Position numbers and translations under genes: made by a program | Origin: Candidatus Undinarchaeota archaeon | Lineage (GTDB): Archaea > SpSt-1190 > JASMDC01 | Length of the DNA stretch: 22,895 nucleotides | Assembly: GCA_964519305.1 (NCBI GenBank) | Contig: CAZFHY010000020.1 | Coordinates: 58,666-81,560, forward strand | Reading direction: 5' to 3' | In this document: positions 1 to 22,895 of the stretch, piece after piece | Position numbering within the stretch: the stretch's first letter is position 1 | Layout: each line of letters begins with the position of its first letter | Notes under the pieces: generated by a model | Told to the model about the DNA's origin: nothing | Seen by the model: only the letters and a program-made list of their open reading frames with translations | Databases searched by the model: none

Positions 1-1
1 G

Positions 2-2409: not shown

Positions 2410-2412
2410 ACA

Positions 2413-3240
2413 TCAGAGGGCCCTGAAGGCGTCCCGCAGTTTCAGCGCGTCCCCCTCGATACTGGGGCTCTCGCAGATTAGCATACCGGTTACACCATAC
2501 TCCTTCATCACCGAGAGGAGCTCGCGCCAGCGGAGGTCCGAGTCGGCCAGGTCCACGTGACGACGCTCGCCCTTGGCCGTGTACTCGATGCCCGCCACGT
2601 GCATGTGCATGTCCTTGAGCGCTTCCTTCCCGAGCACGTCCTCGACACGGGTCAGGACGGCGCGGAACTCCTCGGACGTGTTCACCTTCCCCCCGCTCCT
2701 TGCATGGAGATGTGACCAGTCGATGGTGGGCCGGACCTGCTCTATCTCGGCGCTGAGTGCTAGCAGTTCCTCCAGCCCCGCGAACTGCGACGGCTTGCCC
2801 GTCGTCTCGGGGCGGACCCAGATAGGATTCCCCTCGTCCTGGAGGACGTGGACGATACCCTTCAACCGGTCGCGCACCGCCGCGTACACAGTATCTGCAG
2901 GCCGCCCCTGATAGAAGGCGGCGTGGAAGGTACACGAGTACGCACCGCAGGCATGGGCCGTCCGCGCTGTGGCCAGCACCCTCTCCACCGAGGCGCTCGT
3001 CTTCGCAGGGTCCTTGGAGAACAGGTTGATGTAATAGGGGCCGTGGGCCGTCAGCGTCAGTCCGAGCCGCTGTGCCTTATCCCGTACAGCGACGGGGTCC
3101 TCTGCCATCCGGACGCCACGGACGAACTCCAACTCCATCCCGTCCAGTCCGAGCTCGACGAGCCGGTCGAGACCTGCCGCCCGGGTCCGGGCATGTGACG
3201 ATGTAGGGCTGCCGGCGGTACCGAAGAGCAGACGGTCCAT
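2413..3240 (-). CDS. nfo: Endonuclease IV (archaeal-type AP endonuclease family 2, TIM barrel)
   Basis: Motifs FGTAG, ELEFVRGV, AHGPYYINL, FHAAFY, PETTGKPSQF, IDWSHLHAR, HMHVAGIEY, GERRH and ICESP match archaeal Nfo, including the His/Glu/Asp metal ligands. Confidence 0.92.
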   Translation of the reverse strand: MDRLLFGTAGSPTSSHARTRAAGLDRLVELGLDGMELEFVRGVRMAEDPVAVRDKAQRLGLTLTAHGPYYINLFSKDPAKTSASVERVLATARTAHACGAYSCTFHAAFYQGRPADTVYAAVRDRLKGIVHVLQDEGNPIWVRPETTGKPSQFAGLEELLALSAEIEQVRPTIDWSHLHARSGGKVNTSEEFRAVLTRVEDVLGKEALKDMHMHVAGIEYTAKGERRHVDLADSDLRWRELLSVMKEYGVTGMLICESPSIEGDALKLRDAFRAL

Positions 3241-3263
3241 GCCCGGGCCGTCCCGCGCCCAGC

Positions 3264-3278
3264 TTTAAACAGGTTTGG
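3264..3278 (-). promoter_or_regulatory. Putative BRE/TATA promoter for a leaderless nfo transcript
   Basis: Minus strand CCAAACCTG-TTTAAA, with the first T 29 nt upstream of the ATG at 3240. The TATA overlaps the TAA stop of the upstream gene. Confidence 0.55.
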
Positions 3279-4818: not shown

Positions 4819-4862
4819 GGACATCACCAATCTTTAAAGCTGTTCGAGTCGCGGGCGGTATC

Positions 4863-5558
4863 TCAATCGTTCTCGAGGTAGACCTCGACAACGTTCCCGT
4901 CATCGTCAAGCATACGGACCTTCTCCAGCCGCTCCTCCACGGGTCTCTCCTCCGGGACAGGAGGGGGCGGCGGGGGCGGAGCATAGTACGACTGGGCGTA
5001 CATGTTCGCGTAGTAGGACTCATAGGTAGCGAGGTTGGTCTCCGGTTCGTCCTCGACGACGTGGGGCGTCTCGACCTGTCTGAGCTTCAGGAAGAGTATA
5101 AGGAACAATGCAAAGAGAACGAAGATCACCACTCCGATGGCCCCTGCTACCATAGGGCGGGTCTCGATGAGGACGTGCACGCTGGACCTTACATCGATCC
5201 AGGGTAGGAGGCGGTTCAGGCACATCGACCGCCGGTCCTCATCGGCAAGCGACCTGCATGCGGTCATCCCCTTCTCGGGTTCGTTCTTGGCGACCTCGAT
5301 GGCGGTCAGTCGAAGACAGCCGTCCCGGCGTCCGCTGTCGCTGATGTCGCGGCACATCGACAGTGCCTCTTCCGCATCGTCCCACGCCGTGTAGGGAGCG
5401 AGCCTGGACAGGCACCGGTCACGCTCAGGGCCTTCCTCTTCCAGGTCGCACTCCAGCATCTCCGGAGCAGGAGGGCGTTCGGCCGTCGGTGTGATGCAGC
5501 CGGCGAGCAGCAGCGCGGCCAGGATAATGACGAGCGCTGTGAGAGAACGCATGGTCAT
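4863..5558 (-). CDS. Hypothetical lipoprotein-like membrane protein with Cys-pair repeats and a Tyr/Pro-rich tail
   Basis: Lipobox-like LLLAGC. Three Cx11C units (CDLEEEGPERDRC, CRDISDSGRRDGC, CRSLADEDRRSMC). TM helix VAGAIGVVIFVLFALFLILFL, then YESYYANMYAQSYYAPPPPPPP. The start could be 5552. Confidence 0.75.
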   Translation of the reverse strand: MTMRSLTALVIILAALLLAGCITPTAERPPAPEMLECDLEEEGPERDRCLSRLAPYTAWDDAEEALSMCRDISDSGRRDGCLRLTAIEVAKNEPEKGMTACRSLADEDRRSMCLNRLLPWIDVRSSVHVLIETRPMVAGAIGVVIFVLFALFLILFLKLRQVETPHVVEDEPETNLATYESYYANMYAQSYYAPPPPPPPVPEERPVEERLEKVRMLDDDGNVVEVYLEND

Positions 5559-5573
5559 TCAATTAAGCCTGGT

Positions 5574-6182
5574 TCATCCATTAAATGCGTATTCCTTGCA
5601 CATGCGGCAGAACAGGCGGTGGATACGCGTGTCGTCGGTGAGCTCTGGGTGGAAGGCGAGTCCCAGGACGTTCTTGCGCTGGATGGCCACGATACGTCCG
5701 TCGAACATGGCCAACGGCCGGGTGTCACCCCACACGCGCTCCACGGCGGGCGCGCGGATGAAAACACCGTGACAGGTGCCCACGCCCTCGAGCTCCAGCT
5801 CGGCCTCGAAGCTCTCGCGCTGGCGGCCGAACGCGTTCCGGTTCACTTCGGCCTCCAGCAACCCCATGAGCTGTTGACCTGTGTGAGCGACCTGTTCACC
5901 GCCCGAGGCGGATATGATGATGAGGCCCGCGCAGGTGCCCATGATCGGTAGCCCGGCCTGGCCCAGGTCCCTGAGTGGACCGAACATCCCTCGCTCCTGG
6001 AGGAGGTCGGAGATGGTCGTGGACTCGCCACCAGGCAGTATCACGCCGGTTATGTCATCGAGCCCGGCGAGCGTACGCAGCCAGAACACCTCGCCGTCGA
6101 TACCCTCCTCACGGAGGGCCTGCTCGGACATGGTTATATGTTCCGAGACGGCCCCCTGGAGCCCGACTACACCGATGCGCAT
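5574..6182 (-). CDS. pdxT: Pyridoxal 5'-phosphate synthase glutaminase subunit PdxT
   Basis: GLQGAVSEH, PGGESTT, GTCAG (catalytic Cys), RNAFGRQRESFE, FIRAP and FHPELT (His-Glu of the triad). Starts 4 nt downstream of pdxS. Confidence 0.97.
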   Translation of the reverse strand: MRIGVVGLQGAVSEHITMSEQALREEGIDGEVFWLRTLAGLDDITGVILPGGESTTISDLLQERGMFGPLRDLGQAGLPIMGTCAGLIIISASGGEQVAHTGQQLMGLLEAEVNRNAFGRQRESFEAELELEGVGTCHGVFIRAPAVERVWGDTRPLAMFDGRIVAIQRKNVLGLAFHPELTDDTRIHRLFCRMCKEYAFNG

Positions 6183-6186
6183 GCCT

Positions 6187-7080
6187 TCATACGCCCCGCG
6201 CTTGGAGCCGCTGGTCGTCTGAAAGCGTGGACATCTCGATGCCCTTCATGGGCTCGCCGAGCCCCTTGGCGGCCTTGGCGATCTCTTCAGGCTCATCGAA
6301 ATGGTTCACGGCCTCAACGATCGCTCTGGCAAATCGAGGCGGATCATCGGACTTGAATATACCGCTCCCCACGAACACACCATCAGCGCCCATCTGCATC
6401 ATCAGCGCAGCATCTGCTGGTGTTGCGATGCCGCCCGCGGCGAAGTTGACCACGGGGAGCCGGCCGAGCTTGGCGGTCTCCTTCACAAGGGAGATAGGGA
6501 CGCCGTACTCACGGGCCTTGCGAGCAAGGAACTCGTTGTCCTGTCCGCTCAGCGCACGTAACTCGTCGGCGATCTGGCGGGTGTGGCGTACGGCCTCGAC
6601 AACGTTACCGGTTCCTGCCTCGCCCTTGGTCCGGATCATGGCAGCACCCTCGTTGATACGTCGGAGCGCCTCGCCCAGGTCACGGGCGCCACACACGAAC
6701 GGCACGGTGAACCCGGACTTATCGACGTGGTTGTTCATGTCCGCGGGGGTGAGCACCTCCGATTCATCGATCATGTCCACGCCGAGCGTCTCCAGAATCT
6801 GCGCCTCGACGAAATGGCCGATGCGGCACTTCGCCATGACGGGGATGGTCACGGCATCGACGATGGCCTCGACCTTTGCAGGATCGGGCATCCGGGCGAC
6901 ACCGCCCTGCGCTCGCACGTCCGCGGGAACGCGCTCGAGCGCCATGACAGCGACGGCACCGGCCTTCTCTGCCACCAGGGCCTGCTCGGCATTGGTGACG
7001 TCCATGATGACGCCGCCTTTCTGCATCTTAGCGAATCCTCGCTTGAGACGATCTGAACCGTGGACTATCTCGGGGATCAT
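6187..7080 (-). CDS. pdxS: Pyridoxal 5'-phosphate synthase lyase subunit PdxS
   Basis: [61 protein letters not shown] and [11 protein letters not shown]. Confidence 0.98.
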
Positions 7081-7086
7081 GTCGGC

Positions 7087-7116
7087 TGGTCATTTGACCA
7101 AAGGTTTTAAGGCTTC
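7087..7116 (-). promoter_or_regulatory. pdxST promoter (BRE/TATA) with a palindromic operator-like site
   Basis: Minus strand GAAGCC-TTAAAA, 30 nt upstream of ATG 7080. Perfect inverted repeat TGGTCA-TT-TGACCA at 7087-7100, between the TATA and the start. Confidence 0.6.
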
Positions 7117-7137
7117 TCGTGAGGGCCGATGGGCCCA

Positions 7138-7767
7138 TCATCCACGTTTCAGCTGTACCAGAAGGGCTGGCAGCTTGGACACATTCTCGATAATATGGTC
7201 GGCACCGGCGCCCTCCAGATCCTCGCGCGAAGCATAGCCCGAGAGCACTCCGATTGTCGTGATCCCGGCGTTGCGCCCGGCCAGGATGTCGAGGGTACTG
7301 TCCCCCACCATCACAGCAGGTCCGCCGCCCAGAGCGCCGATGATCAGCTCGACGCCGTCGGCGAGCGGTTTTGGCGGTGCGTCCTCTCGTGTGATGACCG
7401 TCTCGAAGAAGGTGCGGAGGTCCAGCCGCTCGAGGCAGCGGTCCACAGCAGGACGGCAGTTACGGGAGAGGACGGCCATGCGCAGGCCACGGTAGCGGAG
7501 CTCCTCCAGCGCCCCCCGCGTACCAGGGATCGGGCTCGCGTTGTCCGCAGCGGCCACCTCCGTCTCCTCGAGCCGCGCATGGAGCGTTCGGCCGAGCTCG
7601 GGATCGCCCAGTGCAGCAGCACCCAGTGCGATCTTCTCCACTATACCGAACTCATCGGACACGTCCACGCCACGCTCGGTGAAGATGGTGTCTATCTCGC
7701 GCTTTATACCGTCCAGGTTCAATCGTCCAGCGGTGAGCGTTCCGTCGAGGTCGAAGATGACTATCAA
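7138..7767 (-). CDS. HAD-superfamily hydrolase (phosphoglycolate phosphatase-like, C1 cap)
   Basis: Motif I FDLDGTL, motif II VLSRN, motif III PKP and motif IV VGDSTLDI. TTG start preceded by a GGTGAG SD. Confidence 0.9.
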   Translation of the reverse strand: MIVIFDLDGTLTAGRLNLDGIKREIDTIFTERGVDVSDEFGIVEKIALGAAALGDPELGRTLHARLEETEVAAADNASPIPGTRGALEELRYRGLRMAVLSRNCRPAVDRCLERLDLRTFFETVITREDAPPKPLADGVELIIGALGGGPAVMVGDSTLDILAGRNAGITTIGVLSGYASREDLEGAGADHIIENVSKLPALLVQLKRG

Positions 7768-7791
7768 GAGGACCGCTCACCACAACGGAGC

Positions 7792-7804
7792 TTATAACGG
7801 TTTT
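7792..7804 (-). promoter_or_regulatory. Putative BRE/TATA promoter of the HAD gene
   Basis: Minus strand AAAACCG-TTATAA, 30 nt upstream of TTG 7767. Confidence 0.55.
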
Positions 7805-7806
7805 GT

Positions 7807-8535
7807 TCAGTACCGCCCGTACACGTTCGCGTACCCGCCGCGGCCCGCGTAGTACGAGCTCCCCTGGTAGGCGGGGTACTGGTACCCGTAATAGCCGGCC
7901 TGGGCCATGGCGGTAGCTTGTTGCTGCTGCTGGAGAGCCGCCTGCTGTGCGATCGCCCTGCTCCTGGTGAAGAGCGCCAGACCCATGATGAGGACTATGA
8001 TGACCAGCACGATCCCGATGAGGAAGCTCATACTGGAACCTCCCCCGTCGTCCGTGCCACCGCCCGCCGTGGCGGTTGCCGTCGCGGTCGCGGTCCCGCT
8101 GGCCTCGGGACCTTCGGACGGTTCCGCGCTCGCCGTCGCCCCTTCGGCAACGCAGTCCTTCACGACGATGACTATCTCGCGTTTAACGGTGAACTGGGGC
8201 GAAATCGCAGGATAGGCCACGAGGGGGAGCGAGTACCGGCCCGGATCTAGTCCGAGGGGTGGTGTTAGATCGTACCGATGGTCCACGTACTCGGCTGCAC
8301 CCAAGGACACCTTGTAAGGGTTCTTCTTCTGGTAGAGTCCATGGGGATCATCGAGCTTGACAACGAAGATGGCAGGGTCCTTGAGGAGGCTCTCGTACTT
8401 GGCAACGACGCTGATCGTTTCTCCCCGACACCCCGACTGCTCGGGATTCTCAACAACGAGATTGAGGATCTCGAGGGAGGATCCCATGACGAGGAGGAGC
8501 GCAAGCACGACTGATCCCATCCTCTTCATCGACAT
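7807..8535 (-). CDS. Hypothetical single-pass membrane protein (signal peptide, Ig-like domain, Thr/Ala linker, TM, Gln/Tyr/Gly-rich tail)
   Basis: I placed the start at ATG 8535 (MSMKRMGSVVLALLLVMGSS, AAGGGGG SD upstream) rather than the track's 8592, which runs through a TATA box. Beta-rich domain with PGRYSL, linker GTATATATATAGGG, TM FLIGIVLVIIVLIMGLALF, tail QQQQQ...YYGYQYPAYQGSSYYAGRGGYANVYGRY. Confidence 0.75.
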   Translation of the reverse strand: MSMKRMGSVVLALLLVMGSSLEILNLVVENPEQSGCRGETISVVAKYESLLKDPAIFVVKLDDPHGLYQKKNPYKVSLGAAEYVDHRYDLTPPLGLDPGRYSLPLVAYPAISPQFTVKREIVIVVKDCVAEGATASAEPSEGPEASGTATATATATAGGGTDDGGGSSMSFLIGIVLVIIVLIMGLALFTRSRAIAQQAALQQQQQATAMAQAGYYGYQYPAYQGSSYYAGRGGYANVYGRY

Positions 8536-8574
8536 AGGAGCATTCCCCCTTATAGGTTGTGATAATGGAGTGTT

Positions 8575-8622
8575 GAAACTATAAATAGACACAGGCGGCT
8601 CGCCGTGAAACCTATTTAAACG
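8575..8622. promoter_or_regulatory. Divergent promoter region (two TATA boxes)
   Basis: Minus strand TTTATA at 8585-8580 for the leftward gene. Plus strand GAAACC-TATTTAAA at 8607-8620, about 31 nt before GTG 8646. Confidence 0.55.
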
Positions 8623-8645
8623 AAGTAAGCCACTCCAAATGCCCA

Positions 8646-9644
8646 GTGTACTCCCGGGTCCGTCTCGTCGGCGTCCTTCTTCTTATAGCGCTCACGCTCC
8701 CCTGTATTGCTGTTGGGAAGGAGGGCCGCGTCTATGATGCGTACAAGATGCGTATCGACGTGATGCCGAACGGCACATGTCGGGAGACCATCGACATCCA
8801 TCTTCGCAATACCGGCGACGAGCCGCTCCGCAACGCCTTCTTCACGGTAGTCCGTGACGTCCAGGATATCGAGGTCACCGGTATCGGCGAGGACATCTCA
8901 TGGACCGTCGCCGAGAACGAGTGGATCAAGCTCGTGAACATAACCTTCACCTATCCCGTGCTCCCGGACAAGGACCGTCATTATACCATCTCATTCACAA
9001 CCGATCAGTTCGTACGGCGGGAAAAGGACGACCTTGAGTTCCGAACGACCTATAATCCGTCAACGCCCATCACGGACTTCAGTCTCACCGTATCGCTCCC
9101 GTCCGGTTATGTCCTTCCCGTGGGCGGGATGGCGGCTCAGACGCATTCCGTTCTGTTCCCGCCAGCAGAGCTCAAGACCGACGGACAGCACCTTCTCCTC
9201 GTATGGAGCCGTACCAACGTTACTGCTGATGACAGCATTGGTGTGTTCGCCCGGTTCACACGCCCGAAGGAAGAGGTCAAAGAGGCATGCTATCCCATCA
9301 CCCCTCAAGGTATCGCGGTCGGTATCCTCCTTGGAGGGGTACTGTTCTTCTTTGGTAGATGGGCCACACAGAAACGGCCCTCCGTCCTATCTGTTTTCAC
9401 AGAGGACGAGCAGGCGGTCGTCGAGGTCTTGATACACGCCGGTGGGCGACTCAAACAGCGCGACCTGCTGGTAAAGCTCGACATCTCCAAGTCCAAGCTC
9501 AGTCGTCTTGTCATGGACCTCGAGTCACGGGGCGTGCTCCGCAAGGAGCGCATGGGCAACACGAACCGCCTCGTCCTCCGCGATGACCTCAAGCGCGCAC
9601 GGATCGATAAGAAGGAACATGAAGCGACCGATGTCGGTTCCTGA
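8646..9644 (+). CDS. Membrane-anchored winged-HTH regulator (COG2512-like: signal peptide, extracellular beta domain, TM, cytoplasmic HTH)
   Basis: N-terminal hydrophobic signal, beta-rich region, TM GIAVGILLGGVLFFFG, then TEDEQAVVEVL...GGRLKQRDL...ISKSKLSRLVMDLESRGVLRKERMGNTNRLVL, which is typical of archaeal membrane-associated HTH proteins. Confidence 0.85.
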   Translation: MYSRVRLVGVLLLIALTLPCIAVGKEGRVYDAYKMRIDVMPNGTCRETIDIHLRNTGDEPLRNAFFTVVRDVQDIEVTGIGEDISWTVAENEWIKLVNITFTYPVLPDKDRHYTISFTTDQFVRREKDDLEFRTTYNPSTPITDFSLTVSLPSGYVLPVGGMAAQTHSVLFPPAELKTDGQHLLLVWSRTNVTADDSIGVFARFTRPKEEVKEACYPITPQGIAVGILLGGVLFFFGRWATQKRPSVLSVFTEDEQAVVEVLIHAGGRLKQRDLLVKLDISKSKLSRLVMDLESRGVLRKERMGNTNRLVLRDDLKRARIDKKEHEATDVGS

Positions 9645-9658
9645 AAGCTATTTAATAC
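9644..9658 (+). promoter_or_regulatory. Putative BRE/TATA promoter for the 9690-14689 gene pair
   Basis: GAAAGC-TATTTAATA directly at and after the HTH gene stop. The spacing favours ATG 9690 (GAGGT SD) over 9672. Confidence 0.5.
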
Positions 9659-9689
9659 TTGGAGCCCGTAGATGCGTAGAGGTAGTGAT

Positions 9690-12600
9690 ATGAGTAGACA
9701 CGGTCTGCTGGTGTTCCGCGGTGCTACTGCACTGCTCCTCACACTCCTCTGTCTCGCCTCAGGATACAAAGGTTACCTCGTCGCGGACAGTATCCTTGAA
9801 TCGGTGGAGGTGCTAAATTTCAAGCACGCCATCATCTCTGTGGATTACGACATGAGCCCGTCGCCCGGATACGTGGACGAGCTCGATGAGCTGGCGCTCC
9901 AGACGCGCTTTGATTTGTTCGACCATACCTACTCGACGATCACGAAACAGGAGGAACTGGTGAGGTTCACCATGGGAGAGGTACCCCGTATCAGTTTCAA
10001 TACGTTCACGATCGAAGGAGAGAGCCTTGAGGTCGAGTTCACGCTCCACTACCGGCCAAAACAGTTCGACCTCATCCCTGGTGTGTTCACCTACGGCAGG
10101 AAGCTGCGTATCACATATCCTTCTCTCTATACATTACGGGTGGCCAACGTCACAGATCTCACACTGGAATCGAACTTCACCCTGGCAGGGCGCTTGGTGG
10201 ACATGGAGGCCTTCGCCCTAAAGTCGTCCGATCAGGGCGACCACATCGTTGGTGACACAATCGGCATCGAGAAGATAGGTGAGGTTTCCGGTAGCCTCAA
10301 GTTCTGCATCGCGGCACTCACGGAACGAGGAGATGACCGACCGGTCGCCAAGGCCTTTGGATCGTCCTGCGAGAAGCTCGTGATCCCCACCGATGGTTCC
10401 ATGGACGCCGTTCTCTATGATCTCCATATAATCGGCGTTCGCGGTGACGCCATGGGATATATCAAACAGGAGTTCAGGCTGGCCGAACCCCCCCTGGCGA
10501 TACGTCTCGTACCAGAGCGGACATCCGTCCGTCTCGGGACCGGTCTCGCACTGGACGTCCACCCGGCACAGCCTTTGGAAGGATGCACGGTGAACGTCTA
10601 TGATTCGTTCTGGACCAAGAAGAACACCCTGGACCTCCAGACATGCACGAACGTGGTCGTGGGTACGTCCACATCGTGGGCGCCCGGCACTTACCTCGTG
10701 GAAGTAGAGGGCTATCACCAGGGACTTGTCGGCCGTGCTACCGCCCGTTTCGAACTGATCGGGGTCGGCGGAATTATGCCCGCGGACACGAAGACCGACA
10801 AGGATGTGTACAAGGCGGGCGAGGATGTCTCACTCTATACTGACGCCCCGGGCGATATCTGCAGCGTCCAGGTTTTCAACCAAGACGGTATCAAAGTGAT
10901 GGAGGAGGAGTCGCTCGGATGTGGCAATGCCGAGCTAAGCCTCGATCCATCGCTCGATCCGGGGGCCTACACGATCCAGACCACGGCATACCGCGACAAT
11001 CAGAACGTCGGCGGTTCGGTTAACATGATCGAGGTTTCGGAGTGGCGACCCCAGCTCCGCACACCGCAGTCAGAAGTGTGCGAGGGCGGTTCCATGCATG
11101 TTCTCGGCGCCACCCTCCCGTGCATCCAAACAGGACAGACCTGCACTCCTTCATCCTCCGACATCCCACTTTGCCTCTGCTTCGATAAGGAGACAGGTGA
11201 CGTCCTTGACGTGTGCGAATACGGAAGATACTGTAGCCCTACCGATTGCACCGAGCAGCGTATCAAGAGCCCGTTCATCATCATCGAGACCGATGGAGAG
11301 TGCATGGCCAAGAGCGGTCTCCAGACGCTCTCATGCATCGACATCGGTGAGGTATGCATGGGTACCTGCGTCTGCCTCGGCAAGGATAAGAATCCCGAGG
11401 CCACCTGCGTTATCGGTGAGATGTGCGCCACTGAAGGATGTGCCCCGTCCAACCTCGAGTTCTCGCTCATCGATCTCGAACCCCGTCATATCAGATCGGA
11501 CGTGCTCCTGACGGATGGGGTTAACGTCATATGGCGCGGGAACATCAGGTACGAGGGGGCGCTTCTCGAGGAGGGAGCTCTCGCTGACCTCAATGTGAAC
11601 GCGTCACTCCACGTACTGGATGCCTCCAGTGCACCCACCATCAAGCGTGTGCACGACGATCAGGCCGGTGGCTGGACGATCGAGGCATCCTTCATAGCGG
11701 ACCTGCCTCCCGGAGAGTACGAGGTCTTCATCGTGATCGAGTACAAGGGCAACATCCATGTCATTCGTCGACCGTTCGAGGTATGGTACCCCGAGGACGA
11801 GTCGTTCCTGCGTGTGAGCCAGCACGATATCGAACCTGACAAGGTGCGTCCCAAAGACTTCGAGATCGGTTTCCCTCTACAAACCGATGTGGTCGTCCAG
11901 GATCTCAACGGAAGGTCCGTGGTGAACCTACCCAAGAAAGCCTTCAACATCACTTTCGGAGAGCTCGCACCCGCAAGCTTCACACCGACGTACAACAAGC
12001 TATCGGACCGCTGGCAGCTGTCGACGACGTTCATGGACACGCTCCTCTTCACCTGGGATGATGTACCTGGCCCAGACAATGGAAAAGTGCGGAGCTATCT
12101 GCGACGCACGTTCGGTGAGGACTGGATGGAGCATGCCGATATCTCCAAGAGCAGTGATGAACGGACCATCACCATGGCATCCGGTAACGATTGGCTCGAG
12201 TTCGCCCTGGACGGGAACAATATCAAGGCCACGGTCCGGACGGACGACGGAGAGGGCCATGAGCTTGCCGTCCGTGAAGAGATGGATCGCCTGATCGTAT
12301 ACACCGCACTTCCTACCGAACAAGCCATCTCCGTAGCGATCGAGCACCTCGGGCGCAGCGGGAACTCGAAGGAGCCAATCGAGGTGACGGACTACGTTCC
12401 ACTCGACTTCAGGATACAGCGAGCTAGTCCGGGTAACGACAATGAGCCGCTCATCCATTATCTGGCCGTGATGGGCTTCAATCTCGACATATTCCTTCAG
12501 ATCAAGGGGACCATCGATGTCTCCGAACGTAACTTCCATGTGTTCATCGGGGAACGGAACGTTACAGAGAACCTGGCCTATCTTGTCAGCACGACATCAG

Positions 12601-12770
12601 GTGTCAGGCTGCATCTTTCTGACATCTCTCTATGCCCTCATCCACCGAACGGCGGTAGCACGGTGGAGCTGCTCGTTGAGATCCATACCCCACAAGGAGT
12701 CATCGAATCGAAGCGGACGGACCTCCAAGTGAAGTCCAATCCCGGTCGATACGTGGTGGGATGCACATGA
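9690..12770 (+). CDS. Large secreted multidomain surface protein (~1026 aa; Ig/MG2-like domains, two Cys modules, inserted domain)
   Basis: Signal peptide (ATALLLTLLCLASG). Ig/MG2-like motifs TDKDVYKAGE, PGTYLVEV, PGAYTIQT and PPGEYEV. Duplicated Cys module at 11079-11441. No C-terminal TM. Confidence 0.8.
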   Translation: MSRHGLLVFRGATALLLTLLCLASGYKGYLVADSILESVEVLNFKHAIISVDYDMSPSPGYVDELDELALQTRFDLFDHTYSTITKQEELVRFTMGEVPRISFNTFTIEGESLEVEFTLHYRPKQFDLIPGVFTYGRKLRITYPSLYTLRVANVTDLTLESNFTLAGRLVDMEAFALKSSDQGDHIVGDTIGIEKIGEVSGSLKFCIAALTERGDDRPVAKAFGSSCEKLVIPTDGSMDAVLYDLHIIGVRGDAMGYIKQEFRLAEPPLAIRLVPERTSVRLGTGLALDVHPAQPLEGCTVNVYDSFWTKKNTLDLQTCTNVVVGTSTSWAPGTYLVEVEGYHQGLVGRATARFELIGVGGIMPADTKTDKDVYKAGEDVSLYTDAPGDICSVQVFNQDGIKVMEEESLGCGNAELSLDPSLDPGAYTIQTTAYRDNQNVGGSVNMIEVSEWRPQLRTPQSEVCEGGSMHVLGATLPCIQTGQTCTPSSSDIPLCLCFDKETGDVLDVCEYGRYCSPTDCTEQRIKSPFIIIETDGECMAKSGLQTLSCIDIGEVCMGTCVCLGKDKNPEATCVIGEMCATEGCAPSNLEFSLIDLEPRHIRSDVLLTDGVNVIWRGNIRYEGALLEEGALADLNVNASLHVLDASSAPTIKRVHDDQAGGWTIEASFIADLPPGEYEVFIVIEYKGNIHVIRRPFEVWYPEDESFLRVSQHDIEPDKVRPKDFEIGFPLQTDVVVQDLNGRSVVNLPKKAFNITFGELAPASFTPTYNKLSDRWQLSTTFMDTLLFTWDDVPGPDNGKVRSYLRRTFGEDWMEHADISKSSDERTITMASGNDWLEFALDGNNIKATVRTDDGEGHELAVREEMDRLIVYTALPTEQAISVAIEHLGRSGNSKEPIEVTDYVPLDFRIQRASPGNDNEPLIHYLAVMGFNLDIFLQIKGTIDVSERNFHVFIGERNVTENLAYLVSTTSGVRLHLSDISLCPHPPNGGSTVELLVEIHTPQGVIESKRTDLQVKSNPGRYVVGCT

Positions 12771-14689
12771 GCCGAAAAATGACACGAGGACAGATTGCCC
12801 TCTTTGGCATCATGGCCTTGGCTTTCGTGGTCATCTTCGTGCTCTATACGATGTTCTCTGGACAGAAGACGGAATCGGAGGTACGTCGACAGGAGATACA
12901 ATCGGAAACGGTCCGCAAGGAGCTCGAGTCCGTGCAGTCCTCTCTGGAGCGCTTCCTCGAAGCCGCTATCCACGAGGCAGCGGAGGAGATGGCCGCGCAC
13001 GGAGGTTATACCAAGGAGAACCATCCGCCGCTCAGCCATCTGGGCGTCCCCTACTGGTTCTATGAGGGGAATATCGTTAACATCCCGACAAACAAGGTCA
13101 TGGAACAGATGATGGTACAGGAGATCGAGCGCAATGTCAAGGACCGTGTCCTTGAACTGCAGAAGAGCCTGCGCAGGGACCTCTATTCCTTCGGGTTCCC
13201 AAAGGCGAACGTCACCCTCCTGGACAACTCAATCACGGCACGAATGAGCCTTCCGGTCCGCATCAGAGCAGAGGGTGAGGAAGTCAAGACCGATATCGAT
13301 TTCGATGTCAACGTACCGCTCCGGCTCAAGTTCCTGCACGACATCGCAGTATTCTATGTTCAGAGCTATATCGATGCCCGGACCATGGAGGACTCAATCT
13401 TCGACAGCATCACTTCAGACCCGCGCATCCCCAAACCGGGAGGTGACTGCTGTAAGGGCATCCCCTCATGCGATGCAGATGCCCGATACGAGATTAGTGT
13501 GATATCGACCGATGGGAATCCCCTCTCAAAGCATGGGGACCTCATCGAACCGTTCCGTGAGCATTCCCGACTGGCCGTGGCTAACGAGATGCGTCGTGTA
13601 AGGAAGGCCGACTTCAGTCCGGTTGAGACGTTCACCGGGATGGAACAAGCGGATATCGAGAAGGTCATGGAGTTCGTGGAGTGGACCTTCGACCTGTATG
13701 AGAACGAGTTCAAGTTCTCCTTCATCGCCAATGAGGACAAGCCTGATTACCGGTCCACCGACACAGTGCACTTCTTCAGGCTCGGACCCTTCGGCCTGTC
13801 ACCTTCGGGCGATTGTACGGGCGGGTACAAGATGAACTATTCCATCCACTTCCCCGTAAAGATCATCCTTCGTGATCTCCTGCCTTCTGCAAAAGTGGTC
13901 GGCGCCGCCGGGACATCGTCCGAGATCAAGCCACTGGAGTTCAAGTTCTACATGGAACCATATCTACAGAAACTGTCCGCAGCGACAAACGAGTCGGTCT
14001 CAGCACCCAAGTTCATCGAGGACCAGTGTCAGGGCGCCTGCGCCCTTACAGTGGACCTCGACCCCCCTGCGATGGAAGGGTTGCTCCGGATCGACTCCTG
14101 TCGCTATCCTTCTAACGATGTTGAAATGAGCTATTCCTCGGGAACTACCTGGGAGGGAGTCCCATGCGGCGTCCATGACATCGTGTTCGAGGCAGACGGG
14201 ACCGAGTACGCGAGATCGAGCCTGAAAGAGAAGATCGAGGCTTCAAGTCATGTCACCCTCCCCGTACGTAAGTTCGGCTCCATTTCGAGCCGTGTGATCA
14301 TGAAGAACTACGTCTACTGTGTGTCATCTCAGACAATTGATGAACGGGAACCGATACCTCTCGGCTATGTCGATGGGAGACCGCCGGCGTACATCGAAGT
14401 GTACCTCTTCCCCATGGACACTACCCTTGGGGACGTCGTCAGTGCAATAACCGACGAGGACGGAAAGATCGAATTCCCAACCGTGAACCCCGGTAAGTAC
14501 CTACTGCTCGCGGTCTCGTCCAAGGATAGCTCGGACCGCGCCATCTACTCGGTCCTTCCGAAGGGCATGATCCTCGATGTGGACGAGGGTACGAGCTCGC
14601 TCCCGGACATCGCGATGAAACCAATCACGGTGGAGCTCGACCGGAACGGGATATACCACAATGTAGCATCCCGTGATGAGAACTGTTGA
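12767..14689 (+). CDS. Class III (pilin-type) signal peptide protein, ~640 aa
   Basis: ATGA overlap with the upstream stop. MSRKMTRG/QIALFGIMALAFVVIFVLY fits the archaeal prepilin-peptidase pattern. Followed by a helical stalk, GGY...VPYW.YEG...IPT...ME, and a C-terminal prealbumin/carboxypeptidase-regulatory-like segment (TDEDGKIEF..VNPGKYLL). Confidence 0.75.
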   Translation: MSRKMTRGQIALFGIMALAFVVIFVLYTMFSGQKTESEVRRQEIQSETVRKELESVQSSLERFLEAAIHEAAEEMAAHGGYTKENHPPLSHLGVPYWFYEGNIVNIPTNKVMEQMMVQEIERNVKDRVLELQKSLRRDLYSFGFPKANVTLLDNSITARMSLPVRIRAEGEEVKTDIDFDVNVPLRLKFLHDIAVFYVQSYIDARTMEDSIFDSITSDPRIPKPGGDCCKGIPSCDADARYEISVISTDGNPLSKHGDLIEPFREHSRLAVANEMRRVRKADFSPVETFTGMEQADIEKVMEFVEWTFDLYENEFKFSFIANEDKPDYRSTDTVHFFRLGPFGLSPSGDCTGGYKMNYSIHFPVKIILRDLLPSAKVVGAAGTSSEIKPLEFKFYMEPYLQKLSAATNESVSAPKFIEDQCQGACALTVDLDPPAMEGLLRIDSCRYPSNDVEMSYSSGTTWEGVPCGVHDIVFEADGTEYARSSLKEKIEASSHVTLPVRKFGSISSRVIMKNYVYCVSSQTIDEREPIPLGYVDGRPPAYIEVYLFPMDTTLGDVVSAITDEDGKIEFPTVNPGKYLLLAVSSKDSSDRAIYSVLPKGMILDVDEGTSSLPDIAMKPITVELDRNGIYHNVASRDENC

Positions 14690-14873
14690 AACGGATATAT
14701 TTCCGCCTATTTGTACAATAGAGCAATAATTTTATTATTGGGACGACTTGGGACAACTTCCGCCTGATTAATGGGGCGAGCAATCTGAATGAACTATCGT
14801 GGCCCGTTGTCCCAAGCCGTTGCGAGAAATCGTTTTAAACGCCATAAGCAGAGTATATTACAGGGGTTTATCA
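14690..14873 (+). promoter_or_regulatory. AT-rich regulatory region upstream of the giant gene
   Basis: GAAATCG-TTTTAAA (TATA at 14833-14839), an AGGGGT SD before ATG 14874, inverted repeat CAATAAT-TTT-ATTATTG, and direct repeats (see findings). Confidence 0.55.
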
Positions 14874-17800
14874 ATGGGATTCAGTACCAATCGAACAAGA
14901 CATACCTACGCACTATTCATGGCGTTCGTGCTCTGTGCGCTTCTCACATTGGCGACGAGCACCGCAGAGGACGACATGGGTGCGTTCATTTGTGAAGAGA
15001 CAATCGAAGACACGCATCTGAGTATCTTCTGCTATCATACGGAGACCGCCTCTACGATCGGTATCTTCGTCAAGGTGGACGACGCATTTATCGCGGATTT
15101 CCTTTGCGATAAATCCAAGTTAACGTCCGACGAGACTCCAGAAGCGGATTATTGCTGGAGTTCCACGATCGGGAGAGCCACCGTAAAGATACCATTCACT
15201 GCGTACGACGGTAAGCTCGGTAAGCTGAAACTATTTGGCGACCGTGCGGGGAACGCCCCCGACTCTTCCTTGAGCAATCTCAAGACCTATTCATTCGATA
15301 TTACGAAACCAGAGGAAACTGCGGAAGAAGAGGAGACAACCCCTGAATCCCCGACACCCCCGCAGAACATTGAAGCCTATACGAGCAGGTGCACGGACAA
15401 GGTCTTCATCGGTAAGGAATTCACCTATACGTCCGGTAATCCCACTGAAAGGGAAAGAGCAAAGGAGGAAGCCCTTCAATATGCCAGGGACCACTGCCCC
15501 GACTACTGCAAGAAGGGACGACTGGCGGTTTTCGATTACGGGACCGATCCCCCCTACTTCAAGGGACTTCAGGCCTGCTACGACCCCCGTATCTGGGAAC
15601 CCGCTGGCGGCATTGACAGGGACGACTCGAAGGGGACGGATGACGCGGCCCTCGCCGAGGTCAGTGCAAAAGAGATAGAGAGTTGTAAGGCTCTATGCGA
15701 GCAGGTCTATTCAGACAAGGCTGCTACATTGTTCACGCCTTTGATCATGAACTTCCAGCGAAAGGAGGATGTCAACGGCCCCATCAGGTTCGGGTGCTTG
15801 TGCCAGTTCCGATCATGCTCCTGCTGTCACATCCCCGGTAACGATAACTACCCCTATCGCTGGGTCAAGGATGTGGGCACATGCACCGGGGACACTTCAA
15901 ATAAATACGGCCCCGGCCACACCGTCGATCCCAATCTCTGTACGGACGCACCTTTCCACGAGGATAATGAAGGGACATGCGCATTGCCCCGTGCTGTGAA
16001 GCCCGACTGTCTCCACTGCTGCAACAAGGGGACCTCGGATGATCCTGTGTACGACTGGTTGCCTACATCATGTGCTGCAGATGGGTACACGGATGCCGCA
16101 TCCAGGATGGACTGCTGCGAGACCCAATCCAGTGACGGTCTGTCGTGCACCACGTGGAAAGATGCCTCGGGATGCAACGTCATCGAGGATCCTGACACCT
16201 ACACCCTCAAAGGGAAGGTATGTTGCAGGGCCCACGGTGACACCTATGCATGGCTGGACATCGATCCGGACGCCGGTATCACCTGCCCGCTATCGGAACG
16301 GGCTGCAGATCAATCATTATGTGGTCCCAGTGACGACAGTATGGCGTGCTGTGTGCTCAGGAAGGACGACAACACGGCCGATTTCCAATTAATGAGCCGA
16401 GAGGAATGCGCTACCAAGCTCGAGGGCGAGACGGGGGTCATGTTCTCCTCGGAGTACTGTGAGCTAGACATCACGGGTACATGTCAGGGTGACCAGGACC
16501 TGCCGAAGGTCTATCTAGCGGCCATTTATGCCGACGACTGCAAGGACGGCTCTGACGAGCGCAAGATAGAGTGTTATCAGGGTGGATCCGGTTCTACCTG
16601 CGAGACAGTTGAGGGTCAGAACCTCGCCTCCAAGGTGGATCCCGACGAGAAGGCCGAGCTCCGCATCACAGGTGGTAAGAAGGATGATAACGATTGTCAG
16701 GTCACGCTGGTCATGAGCTTGACCGAGCCATCAGATAATGCGGTCCCGGAGTCAGGTATCTGCGATGGTGCCCGCACGTTCGGTGGACACTGTTACAAGA
16801 TGACCGATAAGCTGGAATGGCCCGCTGCGAAATCGAAGTGCGAGGCGTGGAACGCTCATCTCGTGACCATCGACGATGCGCTGGAGAACGAGTTCATCAA
16901 GAAGACGTTCGCTGAGAACCTCTGGATCGGTTACAATGACCGTGAGCAAGAAGGGCGATATGTCTGGACTACGGATCCGGCGACCGGTGACCTACCCGCA
17001 GTCTGTAGCGACGGCTACTTCTACAATGGTCACTGCTACAAACCCATATCGAACACCGATTGGGACGACGCAAAGACCACGTGCGAAGCATGGGGTGGTT
17101 ACCTCGCGACCATCGAGGATGCGGACGAGAACAAGTATATCATGGACCAGTTCAATCAATATACATACAAGTGGATCGGCCTGAACGACAAGACCACTGA
17201 GGGCACATGGGCATGGTCACACGGTGCATCAGATTATCGGAACTGGAAGAACGGCGAACCGAACGACCATGATGGCAACGAAGACTGCATTGAGTTAAAG
17301 GGAGCGGGCAAGTGGAACGACGCGAAGTGCACGAACAAGCATGGTGCGATCTGCGAGTCCGACGGACCCCCGAACACGAACAGGCTCTATTCGAACTGGA
17401 ACAATCACGAGCCGAACAACTGGGGACGCAACGAGGACTGTAGCCAGATCTATACCTCCGGTCTCTGGAACGACAACAATTGCGACCATGATTTCAAGGC
17501 TCTCTGCGAGTCGGAGGATGGTGGTGATCCCGGCTATGTCCTGCGGGTGTTCTTCGCGAACGAAGATGTGAAGGCCGATCAGTACGATGTCGATCCATAC
17601 ACCATGACGATCGCCTATCTCAGGCTCCTGGAGCACCGGCCATCCGCGGAGAAAGGATGCCTCGGGTGCAAGGTCAAGCATGTATACGATGGCGGATTCA
17701 GCGATCCGAACGATGATGATACGACCACCAATGGTATGAAGTATGAAGTGTGCATCTCACCGGATCCCGATCTAACCAGTGGTTGTGACAGGGATGCCTG

Positions 17801-22763: not shown

Positions 22764-22788
22764 GAAAGGGGTCATATGAAGGGGGTTC

Positions 22789-22821
22789 CCTCCGGGCGGG
22801 CCGACAGGGCCCGTCCGGGGG
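22789..22821 (+). terminator. GC-rich stem-loop downstream of the giant gene (terminator or 3' stability element)
   Basis: CCTCCGGGCGGGCC-GACAG-GGCCCGTCCGGGGG forms a 14-bp stem with two G-U pairs, 25 nt after the stop. There is no U-tract on the plus strand. Confidence 0.4.
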
Positions 22822-22895
22822 ATGACAATAAATAGTTCTCGGTACAGAGCGAGTCCGAGAAGTGCCCGTCCATGCCGGGTGTTGAGCGCACCCCA

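What the first reader, a model, noticed from the sequence alone, without database searches (positions are those of the whole stretch)
12039..12302. ~88-aa mobile domain inserted inside an Ig-like repeat
Seen: the preceding repeat reads WTIEASFIADLPPGEYEVFIVIEYKG...PFEV. The next reads WQLSTTFMD-[TLLFTWDDVPGPDNGKVRSYLRRTFGEDWMEHADISKSSDERTITM...DDGEGHELAVREEMDRLIVY]-TALPTEQAISVAIEHLG...PIEV, so a discrete block interrupts it. From memory, the block resembles a promiscuous 'LFSWDxVPGND...LNIY' segment attached to unrelated proteins in Methanosarcinales/ANME archaea; this is unverified. It lacks intein ends. Inference: an in-frame mobile coding module, possibly acquired from a methanogen-like partner.
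Basis: partly seen in the sequence, partly recalled or inferred. Interest (0 to 1): 0.7.

Follow-up and report, generated by a model that had tools for sequence, protein, structure and literature searches.

The report
Fossil protein-coding transposon inside surface protein
The 88-residue block is an old, immobilised copy of a small jumping-DNA element that carries its own self-folding protein domain and lands in frame inside genes; the family is still moving in methane-oxidising archaea, and I found no paper describing it.

Summary
Residues 790-877 of a 1032-aa secreted repeat protein (window 9672-12770) form a discrete block. Two 47%-identical homologues lack precisely these 88 columns; three closer ones keep them.

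Named genomes with canonical copies are mostly ANME-1, ANME-2/3 and Methanoperedens.

At the DNA level the canonical unit is a MITE. It is 262 bp long, with 14-bp terminal inverted repeats and 8-bp target-site duplications, so each insertion adds 270 bp, or 90 codons. A 1.5-1.6 kb IS66-family insertion sequence in Methanoperedenaceae has the same inverted repeats and the same duplication length. Two Methanoperedens genomes show clean filled and empty sites inside one open gene.

Hosts include AlaRS, GyrB, CDC48, primase, H+-PPase, transposases, STAND/KAP NTPases and baseplate proteins. Copies also nest inside copies. The domain folds confidently (pLDDT 94) and has no clear PDB relative.

The window's copy has lost its repeats, and the genome has no detectable IS66 transposase. 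The copy is under purifying selection (dN/dS 0.19). It is a fossil of an in-frame coding MITE. The closest precedent is Rickettsia RPEs.

The parts
9672..12770 (+). Host gene: 1032-aa secreted or surface repeat protein with an N-terminal hydrophobic leader. No Pfam or NCBIfam family.
   Evidence: ORF list and translation; no family hits; homologues P0004, P0161, P0162, P0163.
11448..11786 (+). Repeat unit A (aa 593-705), the uninterrupted paralogue of the interrupted repeat.
   Evidence: hhalign against the insert-less repeat B: probability 78%, E 1.8e-5, 97 columns. Atlas neighbours are MG2/Big_3_5-type clusters at 0.86-0.91.
11787..12038 (+). Repeat unit B, part before the insertion (aa 706-789, ends ...WQLSTTFMD).
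   Evidence: Alignments A2 and A5; hhalign.
12039..12302 (+). The inserted block (aa 790-877). Codons 791-877 (window 12042-12302) correspond to the 87 codons of the canonical element. Codon 790 corresponds to the variable codon made of target DNA plus the element's first base.
   Evidence: 88-column gap in P0162 and P0163. An HMM built from 66 TIR-bearing copies of other genomes matches residues 791-877 end to end (profile 2-88), domain E 1.2e-21 among 31,001 ORFs of this genome. dN/dS 0.19 against the same-genus orthologue.
12303..12395 (+). Repeat unit B, part after the insertion (aa 878-908, TALPTEQAISVAIEHLG...PIEV).
   Evidence: Alignments A2 and A5; hhalign.

Best explanation
[quoted passage not shown] It is bounded by 14-bp terminal inverted repeats, GTAT(T/A)TGTTTAGCT. 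These repeats themselves encode the conserved YLFS and KLNIY ends of the domain. The element makes an 8-bp target-site duplication, so every insertion adds 270 bp, exactly 90 codons. Only one of its six frames is open.

It is most likely moved in trans by an IS66-family transposase, whose 1.5-1.6 kb insertion sequence carries the same repeats and makes the same duplication (inferred, not tested). Copies that land in frame, in a tolerant loop, are translated as an independently folding domain of about 87 aa (helix plus six-stranded beta-meander). They then persist as part of the host protein.

In this genome the element entered a loop of the second of two beta-rich repeats of a surface protein. 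This happened before the three insert-bearing homologues diverged. It has since lost its repeats, taken on the host's GC content, and been kept under purifying selection as a passenger or exapted domain.

Shown: the family, its DNA anatomy, the matching IS, filled and empty alleles, the presence/absence at this site, and purifying selection. Inferred: mobilisation by that transposase, retention of the domain in the mature protein, and that this particular copy arrived by transposition.
For: (1) Discrete presence/absence at this site: the block is present in 3 of 5 aligned homologues and absent as an exact 88-column gap in 2.

(2) The same genome holds the domain in about 9 unrelated proteins, among them H+-PPase. 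There the Pfam H_PPase match is split at profile position 601 of 645. The same-genus genome G001 has an H+-PPase without the insertion. The G000 insertion there is 1+87+2 = 90 residues.

(3) The family is large: 1986 representatives at E<=1e-3 and 1273 at E<=1e-10. An HMM made only from 66 canonical copies hits the window block at domain E 1.2e-21.

(4) DNA identity between copies in unrelated genes is 82-98% over about 262 nt and falls to 18-40% in the 60-nt flanks.

(5) The consensus ends are TATTTGTTTAGCTGGGA and AAGCTAAACATATAC. With the preceding G (42 of 63 sites) they form a 13/14 inverted repeat.

(6) 8-bp duplications at 63 unique sites: mean 4.57 of 8 matches, against 2.57 +/- 0.16 in 1000 permutations (maximum 3.11). 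At least 7 of 8 match at 14 sites, against a control mean of 0.39 (maximum 3). Six sites are perfect.

(7) 55 of 63 copies are exactly 261 nt after the G. The coding frame is stop-free in 55 of 55. The two other sense frames average 12.1 and 7.5 stops.

(8) Partner IS: L113 has the exact repeat, then a DUF2080 gene (PF09853, 1.3e-15) and an IS66-family DDE transposase (PF03050, 1.2e-17). Of 10 transposase loci from the family of G035, 8 carry the repeat and 4 show both ends (1464-1615 bp). Three of those 4 have perfect 8-bp duplications.

(9) Orthologous regions of two Methanoperedens genomes, 95-97% identical, show two clean filled/empty sites. The target octamer appears once in the empty allele and twice in the filled one, and the host ORF stays open (1022 and 1111 aa).

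(10) Nested copies, N-part + whole copy + C-part, occur in 9 places among 151 representative proteins, some with duplicated linker residues such as NSK...NSK.

(11) The domain folds confidently: mean pLDDT 94.4, pTM 0.83, from 37 aligned rows.

(12) The window's insert has dN/dS 0.19 (dS 0.49) against the G001 orthologue. Its identity across homologues (83% and 63%) tracks the rest of the protein (87-89% and 63-70%).
Against: The window copy itself shows none of the DNA hallmarks. Its ends read CTCCTCTTCACC... and ...CTGATCGTATAC. No target duplication is recognisable. It adds 88 codons, not 90, relative to P0162 and P0163.

The genome has no PF03050 hit (0 of 1; 99.8% complete) and no exact copy of the inverted repeat.

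Its copies are only 23-39% identical to each other and to canonical copies. They sit on branches of 1.1-2.7 changes per site, so their origin cannot be placed.

All 31 DNA-level copies in two Methanoperedens genomes are sense, in frame and inside ORFs, and none is intergenic. A plain MITE would not be expected to behave this way.

The matching IS was not found in G031 (0 matches). G032 has only a weak IS66-family hit, without the repeat in the stretch fetched. The IS66-family loci of two ANME-type genomes show no such repeat in the stretches fetched.

One of three polymorphic sites is not a clean empty site: 15 unrelated nt lie in its place. One of four complete ISs has no duplication.

No transposition assay exists, and no protein-level data show that the domain stays in the mature host proteins.
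Confidence: 0.8

Rival explanations
1. The domain is a useful module, for example a binding or adaptor domain, kept because it benefits its hosts. The transposon is only its vehicle. On this view the copies in this genome, including the one in the window, are functional parts of their proteins rather than tolerated passengers.
For: 31 of 31 DNA-level copies in two genomes are in frame and stop-free, and none is intergenic. The window copy has dN/dS 0.19. Seven insertion sites are shared by G000 and G001. Tandem arrays of up to 10 stretches occur on NB-ARC/STAND, KAP NTPase, Baseplate_J and Tail_P2_I proteins, in positions where sensor or binding repeats usually sit. Canonical copies in different hosts are 45-75% identical.
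Against: The hosts have nothing in common. They include AlaRS, GyrB, CDC48, primases, H+-PPase, subtilases, FKBP, patatin, transposases and a multihaem S-layer protein. Some are predicted to be exported, such as the window host with its N-terminal hydrophobic leader, and others are known cytoplasmic enzymes. No conserved polar pocket or catalytic residue stands out beyond the ends that double as inverted repeats. There is no fold relative that hints at a ligand. Purifying selection is equally expected for any folded insert whose misfolding would harm an essential host.
Confidence: 0.3
2. Ordinary domain shuffling. The copies in this genome spread by recombination or gene fusion, and their likeness to the MITE-borne domain reflects only common protein ancestry, not transposition into this gene.
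For: No inverted repeats, no duplication and no IS66 transposase in this genome. The copies are very divergent. The block adds 88 codons rather than 90.
Against: The block matches the element end to end (profile 2-88) with the element's exact length. The H+-PPase copy adds 90 residues relative to the same-genus orthologue. Insertions sit inside conserved catalytic domains, which fusion or exon-like shuffling does not easily produce. Nine copies in unrelated hosts in one genome is the pattern of a dispersed repeat.
Confidence: 0.12
3. The block is ancestral to the host protein family and was precisely deleted in the lineage of P0162 and P0163.
For: Only five homologues are known, and the two without the block may be sister paralogues on one contig, so one loss would suffice.
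Against: The paralogous repeat A lacks any such block. An exact in-frame loss of a whole domain is less likely than a gain by an element shown elsewhere to insert exactly this unit.
Confidence: 0.07
4. An intein-like or other self-removing protein element.
For: It shares host types known for inteins from general knowledge (GyrB, AAA ATPases, primases, aaRS), it is nested, and it is in frame.
Against: There is no Cys, Ser or Thr requirement at either junction. The residue after the terminal Tyr is K 33, E 31, D 22, N 19, S 17, T 17 of 227, and Cys is not among the eight most frequent residues listed. The family ends in I-Y, not H-N. No intein or Hint family is found in Pfam. The size is 87 aa.
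Confidence: 0.02

Closest known systems
Rickettsia palindromic elements (RPEs; Ogata et al. 2000, 2002, as summarised in the MITE review PMC10969869, passages read)
   Same: A small repeated mobile DNA that sits in frame inside many unrelated, often housekeeping, protein genes and is translated as part of them. Insertions are thought compatible with the host fold.
   Different: RPEs are about 150 bp (review passage) and encode a short conserved peptide. The passages read name no partner transposase, no target duplication and no independently folding domain. They occur in Rickettsia. Here the unit is 262 bp. It encodes a complete domain of about 87 aa with a confident fold, has defined inverted repeats and 8-bp duplications, has a matching IS66-family IS, nests in itself, and lives mainly in ANME/Methanosarcinales archaea.
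Conventional prokaryotic MITEs (for archaea the review lists Sulfolobus, Halobacterium, Haloquadratum and others)
   Same: Non-autonomous, short, with terminal inverted repeats shared with an autonomous IS, target-site duplications, and multiple copies.
   Different: MITEs are described as mainly intergenic (abstract of PMC11602168, listing). In the two genomes surveyed here, 31 of 31 copies were inside ORFs in the one open frame.
IS66-family insertion sequences (Pfam PF03050 transposase; single-transposase forms with a DUF2080 gene)
   Same: The 1464-1615 bp ISs in L121, L122, L126 and L127 carry the same 14-bp repeats (one-base variant in L126 and L127) and make 8-bp duplications.
   Different: The 262-bp element has no transposase. 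Its interior encodes a domain with no detectable likeness to the transposase or the DUF2080 protein (hhalign probability 0.2).
Inteins
   Same: In-frame genetic parasites of conserved essential proteins; nesting occurs.
   Different: No splicing motifs. Presumably not removed from the protein. Spread by transposition rather than by homing.

Membership tests
MITE (non-autonomous DNA transposon), tested on the canonical copies of the family | Short element with terminal inverted repeats | tested here: met
   262 bp. 5' GTATTTGTTTAGCT against the reverse complement of the 3' end, GTATATGTTTAGCT, matches 13 of 14. Consensus over 63 unique sites.
MITE (non-autonomous DNA transposon), tested on the canonical copies of the family | Target-site duplication of fixed length | tested here: met
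   8 bp: mean 4.57 of 8 matches against 2.57 +/- 0.16 in permutations. 14 sites match at >=7 of 8 against a control mean of 0.39. The octamer is single in empty alleles and double in filled ones at 2 sites.
MITE (non-autonomous DNA transposon), tested on the canonical copies of the family | Autonomous element with the same ends | tested here: met
   IS66-family ISs with identical 14-bp repeats and 8-bp duplications (L121, L122, L126, L127; L113 partial). Mobilisation itself was not tested.
MITE (non-autonomous DNA transposon), tested on the canonical copies of the family | Multiple dispersed copies with unrelated flanks; insertion polymorphism | tested here: met
   10, 19 and 13 DNA matches in three Methanoperedens genomes. 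Flank identity is 18-40%. Filled and empty alleles were found.
MITE, tested on the copy in the window | Inverted repeats and target duplication at this copy | tested here: not met
   The ends are degenerate and no duplication is seen. Membership rests on end-to-end protein homology (domain E 1.2e-21), unit length, and presence/absence. It is filed as a fossil derivative.
Intein / Hint | N-terminal Cys/Ser, C-terminal His-Asn, nucleophile at +1 | tested here: not met
   The family starts Y-L-F-S-W and ends N-I-Y. The +1 residue is variable and mostly K, E or D. No Pfam hit.
Intein / Hint | Hint fold | tested here: inconclusive
   No Hint chain is among the listed fold matches. Best Foldseek E 0.081; best VIA Z 5.2.
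Rickettsia palindromic elements | Sequence family and palindromic DNA of about 100-150 bp | not tested
   Compared by description only. The size and the encoded product differ.
Ig-like / macroglobulin-type beta-sandwich (the host repeat) | Recognised family profile or fold | tested here: inconclusive
   No Pfam or NCBIfam hit. Atlas neighbours are MG2, MG4, Big_3_5, Big_1 and Big_7 at 0.86-0.91. The AlphaFold flanks have pLDDT below 50.
Any curated protein family for the 88-aa block | Profile match | tested here: not met
   Pfam-A and NCBIfam give 0 families at E<=1 for the block. No repeated DUF was reported at E<=1e-5 or 1e-6 on 55 + 53 carrier proteins.

The most novel reading that the evidence does not exclude
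The element is a transposon counterpart of an intein. It is a DNA parasite whose cargo is a 'stealth' domain shaped by selection to fold on its own, so that insertion into loops of essential proteins is survivable. Its terminal inverted repeats double as the codons of the domain's conserved ends. By repeated and nested insertion it has also built the tandem arrays seen on archaeal and bacterial STAND/KAP NTPases and baseplate proteins. That would make transposition a direct, ongoing route of domain accretion in prokaryotic proteins.
Probability: 0.45. Interest if true: 0.9.

Novelty: new variant of a known kind. Interest (0 to 1): 0.85.

Why it matters
In-frame coding MITEs are known essentially from Rickettsia RPEs, whose mechanism is still obscure. 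Here the whole chain can be read from sequence: the ends, the target duplication, a candidate transposase, empty and filled alleles, a confident fold, and old domesticated copies such as the one in this window.

The finding explains a conspicuous unannotated domain that interrupts core enzymes of ANME and Methanoperedens archaea (AlaRS, GyrB, CDC48, primase subunits, H+-PPase) and will confuse annotation and alignments. It gives a concrete, testable case of transposons creating protein domain architecture in prokaryotes. It also offers a natural, loop-tolerated insertion module of about 87 aa.

Tried and rejected
- Pfam and NCBIfam on the block and the host: nothing at E<=1.
- ESM Atlas on the block: no usable hit.
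- Earlier-findings look-ups by sequence and by words: nothing.
- The search for related loci with the own-genome alignment A1 failed because no stretch was conserved enough. I built A3 from 16 closer copies and reran it.
- Fold searches of the domain model: Foldseek best E 0.081; VIA-align best Z 5.2, below the tool's stated background of 7-8. No fold assignment was made.
- AlphaFold of the interrupted host repeat with 5 rows: too poor to judge the sandwich.
- hhalign of the domain against the IS66-type transposase and the DUF2080 protein: probability 0.2 each.
- Canonical copies in viral contigs: 0 of 89 candidate stretches confirmed. Plasmids and phages by tblastn: no match.
- Tree of 83 copies: mostly unresolved, with the G000/G001 rows on long branches. 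It was not used for origin or direction.
- Search for the repeat next to IS66-family genes of two ANME-type genomes and G032: none in the stretches fetched.
- Search for solitary repeats: 7 of 8 fetched places were chance-like or ordinary copies; one (L113) led to the IS.
- Complex prediction, sequencing-run look-ups and the RNA tools were not used.
- Literature: five full-text searches found no description of this element (terms included ANME, in-frame, MITE, Methanoperedens, IS66, DUF2080 and the motifs LFSWD and KLNIY). Supplements were not opened.
Full report
**The observation**

Window 12039-12302 is an open, in-frame stretch of 88 codons. It encodes residues 790-877 of a 1032-aa ORF at 9672-12770 on the + strand. 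The ORF has an N-terminal hydrophobic leader and no Pfam or NCBIfam family.

A search of 5.8 billion proteins found five homologues, which I aligned. The window's own cluster, P0004 (87% identical) and P0161 (68%) carry the block. P0162 and P0163 (47%; 934 and 931 aa) align on both sides and have a gap of exactly 88 columns, 790-877.

The flanks belong to one repeat unit. The preceding repeat (aa 592-705) aligns with the insert-less form of this repeat at hhalign probability 78%, E 1.8e-5, over 97 columns. The block falls between the 'W..s.F' strand and the 'lP....v.v' strand.

Whether that unit is an Ig-type sandwich is only a lead:
- Language-model neighbours of repeat A are MG2, MG4, Big_3_5, Big_1 and Big_7 clusters at 0.86-0.91.
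- The AlphaFold model of the interrupted repeat, from a 5-row alignment, was poor: mean pLDDT 58.5, flanks below 50.

**The same unit elsewhere in this genome**

A search of the window's own assembly (3.63 Mb, 42 contigs) and a jackhmmer run over its 31,001 ORFs of at least 60 aa found the unit in about nine proteins:
- the H+-translocating pyrophosphatase;
- a primase-polymerase-like protein;
- an A24 prepilin-type peptidase;
- a protein that looks by eye like a metallophosphoesterase (no Pfam hit);
- a protein with three tandem copies;
- two proteins of unknown family;
- a surface protein with partial copies;
- the window's host.

The copies are 23-34% identical to the window copy. In the pyrophosphatase the Pfam H_PPase match (E 4.7e-247) is split, with profile positions 1-601 before the insertion.

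The same-genus genome G001 encodes the pyrophosphatase without the insertion...KKYIESQERTY|DPKDKK... against ...KKYIESHENSY|I-A-LFNWD...LMIY-V-L|DPEGEP.... That is 90 extra residues at the junction, plus a 4-residue length difference further along the loop.

Of ten G001 copies examined, six lie at sites shared with G000, and the window's host makes a seventh. Four are G001-only. None of the other 29 relatives searched had the unit. Those relatives include 15 same-class genomes of 0.6-1.2 Mb.

**The family at large**

A profile of nine own-genome copies, run against 1.84 billion cluster representatives, found 1986 proteins at E<=1e-3, 1273 at E<=1e-10 and 92 at E<=1e-30. I re-scanned 151 proteins: the 150 listed there plus P0004. 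They hold 394 stretches, up to 10 per protein.

The consensus of 208 full-length copies is YLFSWD.IPGnDn.rLieFLk..fgIdWvktAkIeKiDDgkTI...kNSlsL.LNdeKtKv.LkIdDGRTdEfivK.ENGKLNIY.

Pfam on 55 of these carriers shows NB-ARC/STAND and KAP NTPases (with HEAT or prokaryotic YEATS), Baseplate_J, Tail_P2_I, HNH, pentapeptide repeats, GAF, RAMP, primase large subunit, FHIPEP, and trypsin-like + AAA_16. It shows no family for the unit itself.

A pattern scan of one genome per species, confirmed by tblastn, gave 163 confirmed stretches from 248 candidates. Of these, 80 were kept, giving 76 loci. By record title they are:

| Group | Loci |
|---|---|
| Methanophagales / ANME-1 | 13 |
| Methanosarcinales (ANME-2/3, Methanogaster, Methanovorans, Methanosarcinaceae) | 14 |
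| Methanoperedens / Methanoperedenaceae | 20 |
| One Altiarchaeales single-cell genome | 12 |
| Labelled only Methanobacteriota, Halobacteria or Halobacteriota | 13 |
| Hydrothermarchaeales | 1 |
| Thermotogaceae | 1 |
| Omnitrophota | 1 |
| Unclassified archaeon | 1 |

This scan used patterns from canonical copies, so it is biased towards them.

I scanned 53 of the carrier ORFs in these loci with Pfam. Hosts identified include:
- alanyl-tRNA synthetase (catalytic-domain match split);
- four CDC48-type AAA ATPases;
- gyrase B (the Toprim match is stretched over 200 residues);
- two subtilases, primase large subunit, a UvrD-like helicase fragment, an FKBP, two patatins, and an N6 DNA methylase;
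- a DDE transposase;
- a multihaem cytochrome/S-layer protein;
- KAP + TIR and STAND NTPases, tail and baseplate proteins, and pentapeptide + ion-channel proteins.

**The DNA anatomy**

Copies in unrelated genes are 82-98% identical in nucleotides over about 262 nt. Identity falls to 18-40% in the 60 nt on either side.

I analysed 63 unique insertion sites. Before counting I dropped nine identical copies of one Altiarchaeales repeat and collapsed seven orthologous duplicates. The results:
- The ends are invariant, TATTTGTTTAGCTGGGA... and ...AAGCTAAACATATAC.
- The base before TAT is G at 42 of 63 sites.
- Read with that G, the ends form a 13/14 inverted repeat, GTAT(T/A)TGTTTAGCT. The conserved YLFS and KLNIY codons therefore are the terminal inverted repeats. 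Synonymous choice there is nearly fixed (Ser AGC 98%, Ile ATA 92%, Lys AAG 89%).
- The eight bases before the G repeat after the last base: mean 4.57 of 8 matches, against 2.57 +/- 0.16 in 1000 permutations (maximum 3.11). At least 7 of 8 match at 14 sites, against a control mean of 0.39 (maximum 3). Six sites are perfect.
- 55 of 63 copies are exactly 261 nt after the G.

So 262 bp plus 8 bp adds 270 bp, which is 90 codons. The coding frame is stop-free in 55 of 55 copies. The other two sense frames average 12.1 and 7.5 stops. The antisense frames average 3.7, 1.15 and 6.4 stops, and one antisense frame is open in 15 of 55 copies.

**A partner insertion sequence**

One solitary exact repeat, in L113, is followed by unrelated sequence that encodes a DUF2080 protein (PF09853, 1.3e-15) and an IS66-family DDE transposase (PF03050, 1.2e-17).

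Searching 53 genomes of that genome's family with the transposase found matches in 9. Of the 10 loci returned, 8 carry the repeat and 4 show both ends:

| Locus | Length | Repeat | 8-bp duplication |
|---|---|---|---|
| L121 | 1615 bp | perfect | AAAAAAAC twice |
| L122 | 1614 bp | perfect | none |
| L126 | 1464 bp | one-base variant | GCCTTATT twice |
| L127 | 1466 bp | one-base variant | GATTTTTT twice |

The 262-bp unit thus has the ends and the duplication length of this IS. It has none of its genes, and its domain is not detectably related to either IS protein. Mobilisation in trans by this transposase is an inference.

**Movement caught in the act**

Orthologous regions of two Methanoperedens genomes, L108 and L097, are 95-97% identical. 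They differ at three places inside one long ORF:
- L108 4227-4488 is filled, and L097 has ...GAG CAAAAATT TACC... once. In L108 the octamer flanks the element on both sides.
- At L108 1557-1815 the target GCTGGAAC is single in L097 and appears as GCTGGAAC/GCGGGAAC around the element.
- At the third place L097 is filled and L108 has 15 unrelated bases. That site is not a clean empty site.

The ORF stays open in every allele (1022 and 1111 aa).

Among the 151 representative proteins, nine places show an N-terminal part, a whole copy and the matching C-terminal part in that order. The entry points lie between positions 32 and 50, and some have duplicated linker residues such as NSK...NSK. These are copies inserted into copies.

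**The protein**

With 37 aligned copies, AlphaFold gives mean pLDDT 94.4 and pTM 0.83. The model has a short first strand, a helix at 14-25, a short helix, and six antiparallel strands.

Neither Foldseek (best E 0.081) nor the all-against-representatives aligner (best Z 5.2, below the tool's stated background) finds a clear relative. I therefore assign no fold or ligand.

Junction residues rule out intein chemistry. The residue after the terminal Tyr is K 33, E 31, D 22, N 19, S 17, T 17 of 227.

Between G000 and the G001 orthologue:

| Region | dN/dS |
|---|---|
| Window insert (dS 0.49) | 0.19 |
| N-terminal rest of the protein | 0.087 |
| C-terminal rest of the protein | 0.026 |
| Repeat A | 0.22 |

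Identity of the insert across homologues (83% and 63%) tracks the rest of the protein. The block is maintained as protein.

**Status of the window's copy**

An HMM built only from 66 repeat-bearing copies of other genomes matches residues 791-877 end to end, at domain E 1.2e-21. This is the best single copy in the genome.

At the DNA level the copy is degenerate:
- Its ends read CTCCTCTTCACC and CTGATCGTATAC.
- No duplication is visible.
- GC is 0.57, like the host gene.
- It adds 88 codons, not 90, relative to the distant insert-free homologues.

The genome has no PF03050 hit and no exact repeat. Its copies sit on branches of 1.1-2.7 changes per site, against a median of 0.27 over all 83 rows of the tree, and cannot be placed.

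I therefore read this copy as an old insertion that predates the split of the three insert-bearing homologues and has since been immobilised and retained. The pyrophosphatase copy has the lowest GC (0.49) and is absent from G001. It may be the youngest copy in this genome.

**What does not fit, or is open**

- All 31 DNA-level copies found in the regions around every BLAST match of two Methanoperedens genomes are sense, in frame, stop-free and inside ORFs. A neutral MITE should leave intergenic copies. Selection through the protein, rapid loss of non-coding copies, and targeting are all open.
- The matching IS was not found in G031, and only a weak IS66-family hit was found in G032, although these hold the youngest copies. 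They are draft genomes. In the ANME-type genomes tested, the IS66-family loci fetched show no such repeat.
- Retention of the domain in mature proteins is inferred.
- That the pyrophosphatase loop is cytoplasmic is my recollection of that enzyme's structure, not a result here.
- The donor of this genome's copies is unknown. No copy was found in viral contigs (0 of 89 candidates), plasmids or phages.
- Earlier notes of this scan call the genome an Undinarchaeales-like DPANN archaeon. I did not test that.

**Literature**

Five full-text searches found no description of this element or motif.

I read passages, not whole papers:
- A 2024 MITE review (PMC10969869) presents Rickettsia RPEs as the extreme case of in-frame MITE insertion. 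It lists archaeal MITEs only for Sulfolobus, Halobacterium, Haloquadratum, Desulfurococcus and 'several other' genomes.
- The ANME comparative-genomics paper (PMC9012536), a MITE survey (PMC11602168), a Methanoperedens extrachromosomal-element paper (PMC13444090) and an archaeal IS survey (PMC13343696) do not mention it in the passages found.

Subscription journals and supplements were not searched.

**Verdict**

The block is a fossil of an in-frame, domain-encoding MITE of an IS66-family element. It is a new variant of a known kind (coding MITEs such as RPEs), with an unusually complete mechanistic trail.

Noticed in passing
window 1-8500 against 8500-22895: GC drops from 0.59-0.66 to 0.50-0.60 at about 8.5 kb. 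That is where a run of same-strand genes for very large secreted proteins begins (332, 1032, 642 and 2654 aa).
   Followed up: no
window 14799-22763 (+): A 2654-aa Cys-rich protein with three C-type lectin stretches (PF00059, 1.3e-36), a (DT)n run, and no other family hit.
   Followed up: no
window 8646-9644 (+): The gene just upstream of the host encodes a membrane protein with a DUF2207 N-domain and a C-terminal DUF7343/MarR-like winged helix.
   Followed up: no
L076-L083, L085, L086 (one Altiarchaeales single-cell genome): Ten contigs end 159 nt after an identical copy of the unit. The shared repeat extends 600-950 nt upstream and is an ORF that looks transposase-like by eye, with no Pfam hit at 1e-6. 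This would be a multi-copy element whose own gene carries the insertion. L094 shows the unit inside a DUF4277 + DDE_Tnp_1 transposase.
   Followed up: partly
L061 (Omnitrophota MAG) against L063 and L090 (Methanoperedens): Copies are 84-85% identical in nucleotides across a bacterial and an archaeal record. This is either recent cross-domain transfer or a mis-binned contig.
   Followed up: no
L102, L109, L110 (Methanoperedens genomes G032 and G031): In three ORFs the copy sits 1-10 codons from the ORF start and reads M-Y-L/I-F... The target bases plus the element's first G may supply an ATG start.
   Followed up: no
G000 against same-class genomes: G000 and G001 are 3.6-3.8 Mb, while the 15 same-class genomes listed are 0.6-1.2 Mb. 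Earlier AI notes call the genome Undinarchaeales-like DPANN. If so, this is a very large genome for that group.
   Followed up: no
L097 1429-1695 against L108 2655-2669: At one polymorphic site the allele without the element carries 15 unrelated bases instead of a clean empty target. This may be an excision footprint or later divergence.
   Followed up: partly
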